64,000 nucleotides of DNA. Origin: Candidatus Kapaibacterium sp. (GTDB lineage Bacteria > Bacteroidota > Ignavibacteria > Kapaibacteriales > Kapaibacteriaceae). Of the stretch, positions 31,870-36,600 are shown piece by piece. Numbering within the stretch: the stretch's first letter is position 1; every line of letters starts with the position of its first letter. The stretch spans positions 259,855 through 323,854 of the forward strand of contig JBGAJM010000003.1 in assembly GCA_044224925.1 (NCBI GenBank). The letters are read 5' to 3'. Position numbers and translations under genes: made by a program. The notes beneath the pieces are model-generated. The model ran no database searches and was not told where the DNA came from. It saw only the letters and a program-made list of their open reading frames with translations.

Positions 31870-32550
31870 TCATGAACCCGCCGAAGCAGATATGGTCGCC
31901 GTATCTCCGTCCAGTCGAACGAATTCAATTGATTCGCCAATGAAGTACGAGTCTCCAATGACGAGGAGGATCAGTTCGGGGATCGAAGAGTCGTTCGTGC
32001 CCGTGGTACGACGGGGCCTCCATCTTCCGACGATCGTCGGTTGTGCACCGGCACGATCAAGACATGCTTCATACAACTTCAACAAACGCTCCGGACCACT
32101 TGCATACAACCCCATATCAGTATCGACCGGAGGGAGAAAGCGAGCGAAGCTTGTAAAGAACTTGAAATCGTGAAAACCCTCGAGCTCTCGAACGTGGGTA
32201 TCCCATAGGTCCTTCAGGAATAGCTCAGGGGAACTCACTGCATGATTGAAGTAGAGTGAAACGTGATCGTCCACCATGGGCCACAAGAGCGGATGATCTG
32301 AGTAGAACTGAGGCCATTGTGCACTCGTGCCAGGCTTGTGAAGGCCATCACAGAATCCACCAATGACAATATTCCAATGCTGCTTTGTCGCATCAGCTTC
32401 GTTGCCTGTATCGAGAACGAAACTCACGCAAAGTCGCGCGTTGTCAAGCTGAGAAACCGACGTGATCGTGAGCCCTCCAAACTCCTCATACTTGAGGTCG
32501 TCGTAGGTCTCCTCGAGACTCGTCGGTAGGATGTCATCACGTTCCTTCAT
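31870..32550 (-). CDS. hypothetical 226-aa protein, no recognisable motif (partner of arr)
   Basis: clean ORF; start ATG overlaps the stop of the upstream small ORF (ATGA); 30 nt upstream of arr. Confidence 0.6.
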   Translation of the reverse strand: MKERDDILPTSLEETYDDLKYEEFGGLTITSVSQLDNARLCVSFVLDTGNEADATKQHWNIVIGGFCDGLHKPGTSAQWPQFYSDHPLLWPMVDDHVSLYFNHAVSSPELFLKDLWDTHVRELEGFHDFKFFTSFARFLPPVDTDMGLYASGPERLLKLYEACLDRAGAQPTIVGRWRPRRTTGTNDSSIPELILLVIGDSYFIGESIEFVRLDGDTATISASAGS

Positions 32551-32765
32551 GCTGTTCCTTGGTCGTCATTCACAACGAGGTTCGCCTTCTCTCGAGCGAC
32601 CCCGATCGTCGCAATGCTTCCGGAATTGAAGTGTAAGAAATCGGATTCGATGCCGTCCGAGAAGATCACGCCATGTGTCGGCATGAGTGATTCGACGGTC
32701 AGTGATGCTTGTCGAGAGAGCACACCGGCGGCCAGCCGGATCGAATGGTTCAATTGTACCCCCAA
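32547..32765 (-). CDS. small ~70-aa protein, family member 1 (TTG start)
   Basis: paralog of 36316..36522 (3 aa changes for ~9 nt changes); translationally coupled to the 226-aa gene. Confidence 0.55.
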   Translation of the reverse strand: MGVQLNHSIRLAAGVLSRQASLTVESLMPTHGVIFSDGIESDFLHFNSGSIATIGVAREKANLVVNDDQGTA

Positions 32766-32835
32766 CGAAGAGAACTGACCAAGTGGACGAGTAACATATT
32801 GATTGAGTCAAAAGTAACAAGTGACGAGTTGACTT
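32766..32835 (-). promoter_or_regulatory. leader module B with degenerate heptamer repeats (gtcaaaa gtaacaa gtgacga gttgac)
   Basis: shares the ATGTTAC core and 5' leader with modules A and C. Confidence 0.8.
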
Positions 32836-33344
32836 GCCGCGGCTACAGCCGGATCACGGGCTCGACCTCCCAGGTGAAGGGGAGGGAAAGAGAACTGAGT
32901 GTGCGAAGGGTTTGCAATTGGATCTTTCGACGAATTGGTACCAGACAGTCTGTCACAGGTTTCCCTTGAGCCACGATGACGGATCTCTTGACGAGGTCGT
33001 GGTCCTCGGACTCGAAGGTGCCGATTCTCCATATGAATGATACAAACGCCGCATTCGTTTGGGAAGAGCCGTTGCTAGCGTGCGTGAAGTGGTTGCTTGT
33101 TGTACCTTCGTCAATCTACTGGCATGAAGAGGAGCGACAAGGTCCTTGCCTACGAATACTGACTCACGGCGCGGAAATCGACATCAATGCCCTATGACAG
33201 GGTTCGTACAAGTTCAAGGCGATAGCATGGAATGTGCCGGCCGTATGGGTGAGATCGGAGATCCTGATATCGGCTTCAAACTCGCTGTATCAATCATTCC
33301 CTCCAACGACGATGTGGTAAATGTGATTGTGAGAGCATCGCATA

Positions 33345-34460
33345 TCACTTCCCTGTCGTTCGGATGAATCCAGGTTCGTGAGTTTGTGTCTCCATGATGC
33401 TTGGGAGAGGCTCAATACCACCCGTACAGAACACTTTCATGACGTCATCGAACTCGCACAGAATGAACGCATTGTGACAAACAACCTTTACGTCCTTGGG
33501 TTCACATGCGCTACCTACCGGTGCGAGAGTACTGTAGGTCGTTGGAGATGAAAGGCAGAGCACACGTCCGTCGGTTGTTATGGCAATGAGTGTAGTAGAG
33601 TCTCGATCAACTTCAAAGTTGATGAGGTCGAAAGGGAATCTCTTCCAGTCGATAGTGCTGGTATCGGTATAGAATATGTGACCTTGCTGATTGACAACGA
33701 TAAAACCATCCCACTTTCGGACCTTCTCTATTGGAGTGAGCTTAGGAATGTAACCGTCGTCGAATCGTATGAACTTACCCTGGTCGAATGGAGTGACAAT
33801 TGACTTGGTGTGTGCCCAATTGTCGGAGGTCGTTAGGATCACGTTGTCATTGGAGCCTGCAACTCCGTGTGATGCGTCAGACATGTGGATACTGTAGGTC
33901 CTGTCCGAAGACACATACGGTAATGTGATCGACGTCCAAGTTCTTCCGAAGTCCATAGAATGGTCCAGCACTCGGTATGCATGTCCGATCCACGCATTCC
34001 CAGCGCCATCGACATGTGTCGTGAATGACCACTGATCACGGCTAAGGCTGTCGAGTGTCCATGTTCTTCCGGCATCCGTGGTTCTGAAGTATCCATCTTG
34101 ATGAAAGTCCTCTCCATGAAATGAGATCAAACCGGTCAGTATGGCTGTGTCGGCGTCGAAGAAGCTGATTCGTTTGTACCAATCTGGCACCGTGGAGAGC
34201 TCATTTATGGCACTGATCAGAGGACTGCATGTATGCCATACAGTGTCGCCGATCCTTGTGAAATACATCTTACTCAAAGCCGTGACGAGCCAAGTCGATT
34301 GGTCTGGTGAAACGGATAACTCGCGAACTGTCCCCTCGACATTGAATGACGCAATCTGAACGAACACTTGAGCATCTGCAGGCATGTTCATTAGAAATCC
34401 GACAATGATCGAGCACATGAATACCCAATGCCGTACGTGCTTCAAGGAACGATCATTCAC
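33345..34460 (-). CDS. secreted BNR/Asp-box beta-propeller protein
   Basis: signal peptide; Asp-box motifs TDAGRTW and DFGRTWT; ~50% GC. Confidence 0.65.
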   Translation of the reverse strand: MNDRSLKHVRHWVFMCSIIVGFLMNMPADAQVFVQIASFNVEGTVRELSVSPDQSTWLVTALSKMYFTRIGDTVWHTCSPLISAINELSTVPDWYKRISFFDADTAILTGLISFHGEDFHQDGYFRTTDAGRTWTLDSLSRDQWSFTTHVDGAGNAWIGHAYRVLDHSMDFGRTWTSITLPYVSSDRTYSIHMSDASHGVAGSNDNVILTTSDNWAHTKSIVTPFDQGKFIRFDDGYIPKLTPIEKVRKWDGFIVVNQQGHIFYTDTSTIDWKRFPFDLINFEVDRDSTTLIAITTDGRVLCLSSPTTYSTLAPVGSACEPKDVKVVCHNAFILCEFDDVMKVFCTGGIEPLPSIMETQTHEPGFIRTTGK

Positions 34461-34802
34461 AGTAGTTGCCTTTCCCTTCGATGCGTAATGGGATCAACAG
34501 TCCAGCAAGACAAAGGTCGCATTGTTGCTCCATTATAACGAGGAGTGCTTTGTTTCGAGAGATCCCAATCGTGGCAATTCTACAAGATTATTGCAAAAGT
34601 GAAACAGCAGCAGTGTGTTCATTCGATGTCGGTTGATGCCAAGACTCAACCAGTAGATCGAGCGCGCTACACAAAACTCTCGTCTAGACGGAGTCCTTGT
34701 CGTTATACGAACATACCGAACCGTCCGGCTTACAGCGAACGAAGTGCGAACTGTCCGTCAAAGTACTTGGTGAGTTGGTCTATGTGTATGCCGAGTCGCG
34801 GA

Positions 34803-35525: not shown

Positions 35526-35537
35526 GGCGCGTGACTT

Positions 35538-36239
35538 CTACTCCAGCCATTCGATCGGCAGCCCGGTTGCCCTTTTGATCTCAGCCAACGTCTCTTCTGT
35601 TTCAAAACCTAACAATATTGTCTGATCGCCTGTATAGAGGCTCGTGAACCTGCCATTCGTGTTGTGCTCCACTGTGAGCTTTACGATGTTCTCAAACAGA
35701 GTCACGTCCACCCAGTCATCGTTGACATGCATCGTCCACCTATAGCGTTGGCCGTTGAAGATGAACGAAATCCAAGCGTCTCCGGAGTCGATGTCGACGT
35801 GATCAATGACGTCGGTGAATGTGAGTGCGCCTCTGCTGATTCGTTCAAGGTTCCGAATGATGTCCACATAGGCGCCATTATCCTCGATGGCCTCAGTGTC
35901 AAAACTCCAGCATCTGTTCGTGATCGGTGTAAAAGGTTCTCGCTCAATGCATGAACCCAACATCGTATATACGAGCATGAAAGGCTGTTCCTCGGCAGTA
36001 CTATCGTCGCGTTCCCAACTCGCAATGTCGGATGAGTCCACTTCTGGGTTCAAGTCGAAACGTAGTTGACGGAAGATCTCAAGTTGCTGGTCGAATGGTA
36101 CTTGCTGTCTGCCTCGAATTGATTGGGATCGGTCTTGTTCGTTGAACTGGCGAACGCCCCGTACAAAGATGCGCAGGACGATAATGAGTACGAAAATCGC
36201 AGAGACGATGCTTACAACCTTCATCCCATGTCCTCGCAA
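35538..36239 (-). CDS. hypothetical membrane-anchored protein
   Basis: N-terminal TM helix VVSIVSAIFVLIIVLRIFV; 233 aa. Confidence 0.5.
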   Translation of the reverse strand: MRGHGMKVVSIVSAIFVLIIVLRIFVRGVRQFNEQDRSQSIRGRQQVPFDQQLEIFRQLRFDLNPEVDSSDIASWERDDSTAEEQPFMLVYTMLGSCIEREPFTPITNRCWSFDTEAIEDNGAYVDIIRNLERISRGALTFTDVIDHVDIDSGDAWISFIFNGQRYRWTMHVNDDWVDVTLFENIVKLTVEHNTNGRFTSLYTGDQTILLGFETEETLAEIKRATGLPIEWLE

Positions 36240-36315
36240 CTATTGCATACGAATTCGCTGACCGAATACGTCGAATATACTGCACGTCGCTCTTCTAGCA
36301 TTGAGCAGTCTCGGC

Positions 36316-36522
36316 TCACGACTCATTCACAACGAGGTTCGCCTTCTCTCGAGCGATTCCGATCGTCGCGATGCTTCCGGAATTGAAGTGTAAGAAATCG
36401 GATTCGATGCCGTCCGAGAAGATCACGCCTTGTGTCGGCATGAGAGATTCGACGGTCAGTGATGCTTGTCGAGAGAGCACACCGGCGGCCAAACGGATCG
36501 ATTGGTTCAATTGTACGCCCAA
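36316..36522 (-). CDS. small ~68-aa protein, family member 2 (TTG start)
   Basis: ~95% nt identity to 32547..32770. Confidence 0.5.
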   Translation of the reverse strand: MGVQLNQSIRLAAGVLSRQASLTVESLMPTQGVIFSDGIESDFLHFNSGSIATIGIAREKANLVVNES

Positions 36523-36600
36523 CGAAGAGAACTGATGATGTGGTCACATAACATGCTAGTTGAGTGACAAGTTACGAGTGACGAGTTACGTGTTGAGTGC
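36523..36600 (-). promoter_or_regulatory. leader module C with degenerate heptamer repeats (gtgacaa gttacga gtgacga gttacgt gttgagt)
   Basis: 36564-36598; same leader as module B. Confidence 0.8.

What the first reader, a model, noticed from the sequence alone, without database searches (positions are those of the whole stretch)
32547..36530. ~225-bp near-identical duplication encoding a paralogous family of ~70-aa proteins with TTG starts
Segments 32547-32770 and 36316-36530 are about 95% identical at the DNA level. In the frame giving MGVQLNHSIRLAAGVLSRQASLTVESLMPT(H/Q)GVIFSDGIESDFLHFNSGSIATIG(V/I)AREKANLVVN, about 9 nucleotide differences yield only 3 amino-acid changes. The alternative overlapping frame accumulates 7 changes. 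That pattern indicates purifying selection on a real small protein rather than a pseudogene. Both copies begin with TTG where module A has ATG. Copy 1 ends in an ATGA overlap with the 226-aa gene, implying translational coupling. Copy 2 heads a different operon (233-aa and 240-aa unknowns). The first 10 residues match the signal-peptide start of the 1206-aa T9SS protein (MNHSIRLAA), but the sequences diverge afterwards. The rest of the small proteins is amphipathic beta-strand-like, not a typical signal peptide. This looks like a small leader protein family with unknown function, possibly a secreted or regulatory peptide.
Basis: seen in the sequence. Interest (0 to 1): 0.6.

Follow-up and report, generated by a model that had tools for sequence, protein, structure and literature searches.

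The report
Duplicated relic of a kinase gene
The two "small proteins" are left-over tail ends of a destroyed NAD-kinase-like gene, fused to a copied promoter and start codon and duplicated in front of accessory genes; this is ordinary gene decay and rearrangement, not a new small-protein family.

Summary
The repeat is real. Window 32566-32830 and 36323-36587 (minus strand) are 265 nt and 91% identical: 79% over the 77 nt upstream part and 95.7% over the 188 nt ORF part. Independent metagenome contigs confirm the junctions.

The interpretation as a ~70-aa protein family does not hold. The ORFs are the last 56-58 codons of a ~307-aa NAD-kinase-like protein. That protein is normally encoded directly after an SPFH/Band-7 gene. 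The ORF containing the match was 290-330 aa in 75 of 85 matches from the first 83 loci plus the window. A six-frame scan of 119 loci found the match intact in 99. The window holds no other part of that gene and no SPFH gene.

The relic is joined in frame, at a ~10-nt microhomology (LAA), to a copy of the promoter-like region, SD-like GGGGG and first ~7-9 codons of the neighbouring 1206-aa T9SS gene. A more distant relative (L123) keeps a longer, frameshifted remnant in front of the same 226-aa gene. A close relative (L085) has one copy and lacks the 3.76 kb between the repeats.

dN/dS is 0.19 between the two copies (5S:3N, not significant). It is 1.2 and 0.9 against the close relative and 0.11 against the distant one. 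This fits past constraint, with none demonstrable since truncation.

Most likely the unit now serves as an expression head and translated leader. Interest is low.

The parts
32566..32830 (-). Repeat copy R1. It comprises a 77-nt promoter-like/5'UTR part with degenerate GTCACTT heptamers, TATGTT and GGGGG, followed by the chimeric relic ORF.
32547..32753 (-). Relic ORF copy 1: 68 codons from the TTG that aligns with the ATG of the relative and of the 1206-aa gene (the longest ORF starts at 32765). Codons ~7-62 correspond to residues ~247-306 of the NAD-kinase-like family. Its stop overlaps the ATG of the 226-aa gene (ATGA).
   Evidence: HMM positions 248-306, E=2e-25
36323..36587 (-). Repeat copy R2, 91% identical to R1. 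It heads the 233/240/371-aa gene segment.
36316..36510 (-). Relic ORF copy 2: 64 codons from the aligned TTG (the longest ORF starts at 36522). It has lost the native last 7 codons and ends NES*, 77 nt before the 233-aa ORF.
   Evidence: HMM positions 247-306, E=9e-26
31320..31435 (-). Paralogous 5' module of the 1206-aa T9SS gene. It holds four perfect GTCACTT heptamers, a TTGTCA-16-TATGTT promoter-like site, AGGGGG, ATG and the first ~10 codons. It is 75-80% identical to the 5' parts of R1 and R2, and 89% to that of the relative L085.
34522..34581 (-). Third, older remnant of the same gene end (about the last 19 codons). It is 70% identical to R1, has no ORF, and lies upstream of the 371-aa gene.
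   Evidence: blastn E=2e-5
32831..36322 (-). Segment X between the repeats. It carries the 233-aa gene (35538-36239), the 240-aa gene (34803-35525) and the 371-aa BNR-like gene (33345-34460). X plus one repeat (3757 nt) is absent from the close relative L085. GC is 49% against 56% for the window.
31870..32550 (-). 226-aa gene of unknown function. It is the native downstream neighbour of the NAD-kinase-like gene in this lineage. It is followed by a rifampin ADP-ribosyltransferase (Arr) gene at 31441-31839.
27727..31347 (-). 1206-aa protein with a T9SS C-terminal sorting domain. Its promoter and start region is the likely donor of the 5' half of the repeat.

Best explanation
Each small ORF is a chimeric relic.

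Its 3' part (56-58 codons) is the tail of a NAD-kinase-like gene. In hundreds of other genomes that gene is ~307 codons long and sits directly behind an SPFH/Band-7 gene. In this lineage the SPFH gene and the first ~247 codons have been lost.

Its 5' part (~77 nt of upstream sequence plus the first ~7-9 codons) is a copy of the promoter-like region, SD-like GGGGG and start of the adjacent 1206-aa T9SS gene. The two parts were joined in frame by illegitimate recombination at a ~10-nt microhomology (CTTGCSGCCG, encoding LAA).

Shown:
- the homology of both halves;
- the junction;
- the absence of the rest of the gene;
- a longer, broken remnant in front of the same 226-aa gene in a relative;
- a single copy, without the 3.76-kb segment, in a closer relative.

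Inferred:
- The 265-nt unit now works as an expression head, that is a promoter, a ribosome-binding site and a short translated leader.
- In copy 1 the leader is translationally coupled (ATGA) to the 226-aa gene, as the intact kinase gene was before.
- Copy 2 arose when this head was duplicated, or recombined, in front of the 233/240/371-aa segment.
- The peptide itself has no function of its own. Its synonymous-biased divergence is mostly inherited from the time when it was part of a working enzyme.
For: Parent family:
- A scan of GTDB species genomes found at least 595 loci encoding the motif. The ORF containing the match was 290-330 aa in 75 of 85 matches from the first 83 loci plus the window. 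A six-frame scan of 119 loci found the match intact in 99.
- The full-length protein hits NCBIfam NAD kinase models at E about 1e-9 to 1e-10. These scores are far below the models' cut-offs, so it is a divergent relative. It also hits Pfam NAD_kinase weakly and PDB NADK2 and bacterial NADKs at E=4e-8.
- Sources name it NAD kinase or sugar kinase.
- The upstream gene is SPFH/Band_7.
- Among the best 150 of 918 protein-cluster representatives, the matched segment nearly always lies at the very C-terminus.

The window:
- It matches only family residues ~247-306, twice, plus a third ~19-codon remnant. There is no SPFH gene.

The junction:
- up1206 reads GATCCGACTTGCCGCCGCC, the NADK remnant in L123 reads GATCTTGCGGCCGGCG, and R1 reads GATCCGGCTGGCCGCCGGTG.

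Relatives:
- L123 (about 85% DNA identity) has, in order, the end of the glyoxalase gene, an NADK-like remnant covering residues ~198-306 with a stop, a frameshift and a ~10-codon deletion, and then the 226-aa homologue.
- L085 (94% identity) has the flank of copy 2, one R unit with an ATG start, and the 226-aa gene.

Selection:
- dN/dS is 0.19 for c1-c2, 1.23 for c1-L085, 0.91 for c2-L085 and 0.11 for c1-L123.
- By parsimony, changes inside the chimeric clade are 5S:6N (p=0.13 against neutral). Changes on the branch to L123 are 16S:6N (p=7e-6).
- L085 has F->L and I->M at family-invariant positions.

Other:
- ATG has become TTG in both window copies.
- None of six start variants of the ORFs is in a collection of 15 billion predicted proteins, although neighbouring genes of the same NCBI contig are.
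- The island is GC-poor: 50.6% against 56.1%.
Against: - The ORF is open in all three chimeric copies.
- Both window copies keep all 16 family-invariant residues of this segment and differ mainly by synonymous changes (5S:3N).
- An SD-like GGGGG and a start codon are retained.
- The low dN/dS against L123 (0.11, lower than the 0.26 of the 226-aa gene) requires that both lineages lost the enzyme only recently and independently. That is plausible because their 5' junctions differ, but it is not proven.
- Free-standing tail remnants of similar extent occur in unrelated genomes (L087, starting at about residue 250, and the contig of P0046). This could hint at retention for a reason.
- Promoter activity and translational coupling are inferred from sequence only. 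The sigma-70-type scan was not enriched over shuffles.
Confidence: 0.68

Rival explanations
1. The tail fragment has been domesticated. On this view the ~60-aa beta-strand peptide is a functional small protein, for example one that binds a partner such as an SPFH protein encoded elsewhere or that regulates the downstream gene products. Purifying selection would then act on it now.
For: - dN/dS is 0.19 between the copies and 0.11-0.13 against L123, which is itself truncated.
- All family-invariant residues are kept in both window copies.
- The ORF is open in three of three chimeric copies, and an SD-like motif and a start codon are kept.
- Independent free-standing remnants in other genomes begin near the same residue (~250) and keep the conserved motif.
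Against: - dN/dS is about 1 against the closest orthologue, which has replacements at two invariant residues.
- The within-clade counts are indistinguishable from neutral.
- ATG was replaced by TTG in both window copies.
- Copy 2 has lost the native C-terminal 7 residues.
- The segment is five strands out of a larger beta-sandwich domain. The AlphaFold model of the 97-aa tail has pLDDT 68 and no structural match.
- A third copy has decayed completely.
- No partner SPFH or kinase N-terminal part is present in the window.
Confidence: 0.2
2. The 265-nt unit is mainly a recombination substrate. On this view accessory gene segments carrying a copy of R are gained and lost by homologous recombination at R, as with orphan cassettes behind a conserved gene end. 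The ORF would be incidental.
For: - A close relative lacks exactly one repeat plus the 3.49-kb segment between the repeats.
- R2 is about as diverged from R1 (4.3% in the ORF part) as the relative is from the window, which fits import from a sibling strain.
- The 5' part of R in L085 is closer to the 1206-gene copy (89%) than to R1. This suggests gene conversion among the copies.
- A third gene-end remnant sits upstream of another gene inside the segment.
Against: - No integrase, terminal inverted repeats or target duplications lie at the borders.
- Only one gain or loss event is documented.
- Across 41 genomes the genes downstream of intact kinase-like genes are all different, and none is homologous to the window's cassette genes. 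There is therefore no sign of a general cassette system.
Confidence: 0.1
3. The conserved segment is a non-coding RNA or a regulatory DNA element rather than coding-derived sequence.
For: The repeat includes non-coding upstream sequence with tandem heptamers. These also occur between argC and argD.
Against: - There is no Rfam match at E<=1.
- Divergence from L123 is concentrated at synonymous sites of one frame (18S:8N, against 5:20 and 3:22 in the other frames). This shows protein-level constraint, not RNA or DNA constraint.
- Protein homology to the kinase tail has E about 1e-25.
Confidence: 0.02

Closest known systems
SPFH-associated NAD-kinase-like proteins (annotated 'NAD kinase', 'ATP-NAD kinase' or 'sugar kinase'; distant relatives of PpnK/NadK and mitochondrial NADK2)
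   Same: Residues ~7-62 of the window ORFs align with the last ~58 residues of this family (HMM E about 1e-25). The family-invariant residues (ES.MP..G.IFSDG.E.D...F.SG...I....E) are present.
   Different: The window ORFs lack the whole N-terminal domain (GQDG motif), the ND and GSTGW motifs, about 80% of the protein, and the partner SPFH gene. They cannot be kinases.
Truncated pseudogene relics and in-frame chimeric ORFs made by illegitimate recombination
   Same: - Homology to only part of a longer gene.
- Different truncation points and lesions in relatives.
- A junction at a short microhomology.
- Relaxed substitution pattern in the closest orthologue.
   Different: The relic has acquired a promoter, SD and start module. 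It has been duplicated and stays open in all three known copies.
Upstream or leader ORFs that are translationally coupled to the next gene (overlapping ATGA)
   Same: The stop of copy 1 overlaps the ATG of the 226-aa gene. The arrangement is kept in L085 and nearly kept in L123 (TAG-C-ATG).
   Different: The leader is not a dedicated regulatory peptide. It is the residue of the former upstream gene. Copy 2 is not coupled, since 77 nt separate it from the next ORF.
Orphan 3'-end cassettes behind conserved genes (for example orphan toxin tips in Rhs/CDI loci)
   Same: Several copies of a gene's 3' end, each followed by different genes, lie in one array.
   Different: - R1 and R2 share the same secondary (chimeric) 5' junction, so they are duplicates of one event and not independently displaced tips.
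- No intact head gene is present.
- The downstream genes are separate ORFs with no toxin or immunity signature detected.

Membership tests
NAD kinase superfamily (Pfam PF01513 + PF20143; NCBIfam NadK equivalogs) | N-terminal Rossmann-like domain with a GGDG-type motif, and central NE/D and GSTAY-type motifs | tested here: not met
   Full-length relatives have GQDG, ND and GSTGW and hit NADK models. The window matches only positions ~247-306.
NAD kinase superfamily (Pfam PF01513 + PF20143; NCBIfam NadK equivalogs) | Score above the curated family thresholds | tested here: not met
   The small ORFs give no Pfam or NCBIfam hit. Even the full-length relatives score 30-39 bits against cut-offs of 211-493. 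They are divergent NADK-like proteins, not bona fide NadK.
SPFH-associated NADK-like family (tail segment) | Significant sequence homology to the family's C-terminal ~60 residues, with the invariant residues present | tested here: met
   hmmsearch E=9e-26 and 2e-25. All 16 invariant positions are present in both copies.
SPFH-associated NADK-like family (tail segment) | Adjacent upstream SPFH/Band_7 gene | tested here: not met
   tblastn of an SPFH partner against the window finds nothing.
Independent small-protein family | The same short ORF, with its own start, conserved in several genomes | tested here: not met
   Only one lineage (window, and L085 = L086 = L092) has the chimeric ORF. The other short hits are fragments, split genes or tails of ~307-aa proteins.
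Independent small-protein family | Purifying selection acting on the short form itself | tested here: inconclusive
   Within the chimeric clade the counts are 5S:6N, p=0.13 against neutral. Pairwise dN/dS ranges from 0.19 to 1.23. Three sequences are too few.
Sec signal peptide or secreted peptide | Positively charged n-region followed by a hydrophobic h-region and a cleavage site | tested here: not met
   Only MNHSIRLAA is shared with the 1206-aa protein, whose sequence continues AAAILFLAATLP. The small ORFs continue GVLSRQASLTVES, which is not hydrophobic.
Truncated pseudogene relic | Partial homology to a longer gene, the remainder absent, and lesions or different truncations in relatives | tested here: met
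Transposable element, MITE or integron cassette | Terminal inverted repeats or target duplications, or an integrase with attC-like sites | tested here: not met
   No inverted repeats lie at the borders of R or of the 3.5-kb segment. No recombinase lies in 31-37 kb. The nearest transposase (41223-42515) is unrelated to the borders.
Known RNA family | Match to an Rfam covariance model | tested here: not met
   No match at E<=1 in 27000-38000.

The most novel reading that the evidence does not exclude
The last ~55 residues of the SPFH-associated NAD-kinase-like protein may form a self-standing module. It would be repeatedly retained, or co-opted, as a small translated ORF at the head of accessory or defence operons after the enzyme is lost. 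Examples are the window lineage, the remnant in front of a Gabija-like OLD/UvrD pair in L087, and the remnant in the contig of P0046. In that case the widespread SPFH + NADK-like pair would itself be an undescribed NAD-centred conflict module.
Probability: 0.1. Interest if true: 0.55.

Novelty: already known. Interest (0 to 1): 0.22.

Why it matters
For genome annotation, this is a cautionary case. A clean, frame-specific, synonymous-biased duplication with a start codon and an ATGA overlap looks like a new small-protein family. It turns out to be the fossil tail of an enzyme gene that still carries the imprint of earlier selection.

It also gives a tidy example of how a promoter and start module can be grafted onto a gene remnant at a 10-nt microhomology and then spread in front of other accessory genes.

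The more interesting lead is indirect. The parent two-gene module (SPFH + NAD-kinase-like) is very widespread and highly conserved. It has no dedicated model in Pfam, NCBIfam or PADLOC and was not found in the literature searched.

Tried and rejected
- **Family and RNA scans.** Pfam, NCBIfam and PADLOC scans of the small ORFs and of the 97-aa database 'homologues' found nothing. Rfam on 27-38 kb found nothing.
- **Contractile injection system (eCIS) cargo or chaperone idea.** This was prompted by sheath and Pvc16 genes next to one homologue. It was rejected because the window has no eCIS genes and the association is not general.
- **Conserved third gene or cassette system behind the kinase-like gene.** This was rejected because 41 downstream genes fall into 64 different Pfam families. 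None resembles the window's 226-, 233-, 240- or 371-aa genes.
- **Structure route.** The AlphaFold model of the 97-aa tail has pLDDT 68. Foldseek against the PDB gave no match with E<1, so it is uninformative.
- **More chimeric copies.** A metagenome scan for dN/dS material returned only the contig already known.
- **Assembly artefact.** This was rejected using independent contigs that span the junctions.
- **Transposon-type borders.** None were found.
- **Literature.** No paper in the library combines SPFH with NAD kinase. The NrtR and Pseudomonas SPFH papers do not mention this pair.
- **Sigma-70-type promoter and terminator scan.** It was not enriched over shuffles. The promoter assignment is therefore only an inference from conservation and position.

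
Full report
**Observation**

Genes in this part of the window run on the minus strand. The repeat finder reports a two-copy direct repeat, 32566-32830 and 36323-36587. 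It is 265 nt long, 91% identical, ungapped, with a spacing of 3757 nt. blastn gives E=1e-96.

The repeat is not uniform. The 77 nt upstream of the shared start position are 79% identical, and the 188 nt inside the ORF are 95.7% identical. Homology ends at ...GTGAATGA, so the two ORFs end differently: VVNDDQGTA* and VVNES*.

A third, partial copy at 31320-31423 covers the upstream part and the first ~10 codons of the 1206-aa gene, MNHSIRLAA. The counts are 5 synonymous to 3 non-synonymous in the ORF frame, and 2:6 and 0:8 in the other frames.

Contigs from independent sequencing runs (L084, L120-L122; 99.7-100% identical) cross the R2-to-segment and segment-to-R1 junctions. They break inside the repeat, as expected for a true repeat.

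**What the ORF is**

The small ORFs have no Pfam, NCBIfam or Rfam match. A word-indexed protein search found 65 relatives, all at most 117 aa and mostly on short contigs. Many are 94-105 aa and start MSYG..FEKN.

Genomic context showed that these are not small proteins. I scanned one genome per GTDB species and found at least 595 loci encoding the motif. The ORF containing the match was 290-330 aa in 75 of 85 matches from the first 83 loci plus the window. A six-frame HMM scan of 119 loci found the match intact in 99.

That ORF is a NAD-kinase-like protein:
- NCBIfam NAD kinase models match at E about 1e-9 to 1e-10, far below their cut-offs.
- Pfam NAD_kinase domains match weakly.
- PDB NADK2 and bacterial NAD kinases match at E=4e-8.
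- GQDG, ND and GSTGW motifs are present.

Public sources call it NAD kinase, ATP-NAD kinase or sugar kinase. It is preceded, usually with overlapping stop and start, by a ~335-365-aa SPFH/Band_7 protein.

An index-free HMM search of 1.84 billion cluster representatives found 918 hits. Among the 150 listed, the matched segment lies at the very C-terminus in nearly all. The short 'family members' are therefore tails of this protein seen as contig-edge fragments, split genes (L001-L003, L088-L091, L115) or remnants.

The window contains only family positions ~247-306, twice (E=9e-26 and 2e-25). It has no further part of the gene and no SPFH gene.

**The 5' half and the junction**

The upstream 77 nt and the first codons of R1 and R2 are paralogous to the 5' region of the 1206-aa T9SS-tail protein. 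That region carries tandem GTCACTT heptamers, a TTGTCA-16-TATGTT site, an SD-like (A)GGGGG and the start codon.

Three-way comparison locates the joint:
- The 1206 gene reads GATCCGACTTGCCGCCGCC.
- The kinase-like remnant of a relative reads GATCTTGCGGCCGGCG.
- R1 reads GATCCGGCTGGCCGCCGGTG.

This is a crossover within about 10 nt of microhomology that encodes LAA. The small ORF is thus an in-frame chimera. It combines the start of a secreted-protein gene (too short to be a signal peptide) with the last 56-58 codons of the kinase-like gene.

**Relatives show the history**

L123 has about 85% DNA identity to the window. Behind the end of the glyoxalase gene (window 38568-38667) it carries a longer remnant of the kinase-like gene, covering residues ~198-306. 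The remnant has a stop, a frameshift and a ~10-codon deletion, and it lies directly in front of the homologue of the 226-aa gene. The 226-aa gene is therefore the native downstream neighbour. The kinase-like gene is decaying in this lineage with different 5' truncations.

L085 (= L086 = L092) has 94% identity to the window. It has the flank that precedes copy 2 in the window, then a single R unit with an ATG start, then the 226-aa gene. The 3757 nt comprising one repeat plus the 233/240/371-aa segment are missing. The 5' part of its R is closer to the 1206-gene copy (89%) than to R1, which suggests conversion among the promoter copies.

A third, older remnant of the same gene end lies at 34522-34581, upstream of the 371-aa gene. 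It is 70% identical to R1 (E=2e-5) and has no ORF.

The island is GC-poor (50.6% against 56.1%). It also holds Arr, DinB-like, glyoxalase and transposase genes. No inverted repeats or recombinase mark the borders.

**Selection**

Nei-Gojobori dN/dS values:

| Comparison | dN/dS | Counts |
|---|---|---|
| c1-c2 (relic) | 0.19 | 5S:3N |
| c1-L085 (relic) | 1.23 | 2S:7N |
| c2-L085 (relic) | 0.91 | |
| c1-L123 (relic) | 0.11 | 18S:8N |
| 226-aa gene, window vs L085 | 0.40 | |
| 226-aa gene, window vs L123 | 0.26 | |

Parsimony was applied with L123 as outgroup. It places 5S:6N inside the chimeric clade, which is not different from neutral (p=0.13). It places 16S:6N on the deeper branch (p=7e-6). 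The contrast between the two is itself not significant (Fisher p=0.15).

L085 has replacements at two positions that are invariant in 33 full-length proteins, F275 and I294. Both window copies have TTG where L085 and the 1206 gene have ATG.

The data therefore show strong protein-level constraint in the past. That constraint is best explained by the time spent as part of an intact enzyme, with independent recent truncations, since the 5' junctions differ. There is no demonstrable constraint since the chimera formed. Three sequences cannot exclude constraint.

None of six possible start variants of the ORFs is present in a collection of 15 billion predicted proteins. Neighbouring proteins from the same NCBI contig are present.

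**Mechanism proposed**

The unit R is best read as an expression head: a promoter-like site, an SD-like motif, a start codon and a short translated leader.
- In copy 1 the leader ends in ATGA with the 226-aa gene. This preserves the translational coupling that existed with the intact upstream gene. L085 has the same overlap, and L123 has TAG-C-ATG.
- In copy 2 the unit sits 77 nt upstream of the 233-aa ORF and would act only as promoter and leader.

These functional statements are inferences. The sigma-70-type scan is not enriched over shuffles, and no expression data are available.

**Comparison with known things, and novelty**

The ORFs are homologous to the tail of a known, annotated but uncharacterised NAD-kinase-like family. 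They fail every defining feature of a kinase. They fit the definition of a truncated pseudogene relic that has become a chimeric ORF. The array resembles orphan 3'-end cassettes only superficially, because R1 and R2 share one secondary junction. Nothing here requires a new kind of element.

The organism is related to Candidatus Kapabacteria in the FCB group. This rests on ArgD, whose best named hits are 67% identical.

**Verdict**

The object is an ordinary product of gene decay, illegitimate recombination and segmental duplication in an accessory island. Residual uncertainty (about 20%) concerns whether the peptide has been co-opted.

The parent SPFH + NAD-kinase-like module is widespread (at least 595 species-level genomes and more than 7,900 protein clusters) and highly conserved (74% mean column identity across phyla). 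It is often near NAD or ADP-ribose genes and is absent from PADLOC and from the literature searched. It is the more promising lead, but it is not part of this window.

Noticed in passing
L004:4360-6291 and the other loci L004-L083 (not in the window): There is a two-gene module of an SPFH/Band_7 protein (~340 aa) and a NAD-kinase-like protein (~307 aa). It occurs in at least 595 GTDB species genomes across Bacteroidota, Leptospira, Methylococcales, Planctomycetes, Acidobacteria, Endomicrobia and cyanobacteria. Mean column identity is 74% in an alignment of 33 full-length kinase-like proteins spanning several of these phyla. It has no dedicated Pfam, NCBIfam or PADLOC model, and no paper was found. 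Neighbours often include NrtR-like Nudix, NAMPT, Macro, KptA, Arr, eCIS or Gabija-like genes.
   Followed up: partly
L001/L002:7376-8294 and L003:7376-8306: Two different organisms share the same three-piece split of the kinase-like gene (52 + 118-148 + 97-101 aa) at matching positions. Many 94-105-aa 'MSYG..FEKN' proteins exist in metagenomes. This may be a conserved split or frameshift clade rather than random decay.
   Followed up: partly
L087:4117-4281: A free-standing tail remnant of the same gene (about residues 250-305, all conserved residues intact) lies about 220 nt upstream of an OLD-like ATPase/TOPRIM plus UvrD-helicase pair (Gabija-like) in an unrelated genome. Its 5' limit nearly coincides with that of the window's relics. 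L124 has an in-frame stop at the same place.
   Followed up: partly
window 21409-21440 (+) and 31404-31435 (-): A perfect tandem heptamer repeat (GTCACTT x4, preceded by AACTC) fills the spacer between the argC stop and the argD ATG. It also lies upstream of the 1206-aa gene. Degenerate versions sit in R1 and R2, and the unit number differs among copies. It may be a dispersed simple repeat that supplies -35-like TTGTCA boxes.
   Followed up: partly
window 36681-37178 (-): The 165-aa DUF1330 ORF appears to contain an internal duplication of about 244 nt relative to the orthologue in L085. The window stretch 37067-36823 has no counterpart there, and two parts of the protein map to overlapping parts of L085.
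   Followed up: no
window 41223-42515 (+): An IS256-type (Transposase_mut) transposase gene. The identical protein is recorded on 18 contigs, so it is probably multi-copy or active in this lineage.
   Followed up: no
window 56241-57869 (+): Three tandem paralogous carboxymuconolactone-decarboxylase-family (CMD) genes give 104-108-nt direct repeats spaced about 533-553 nt apart.
   Followed up: no
window 31441-31839 (-): A rifampin ADP-ribosyltransferase (Arr) gene lies directly downstream of the 226-aa gene. It is another NAD-consuming enzyme next to the relic of the NAD-kinase-like gene.
   Followed up: no
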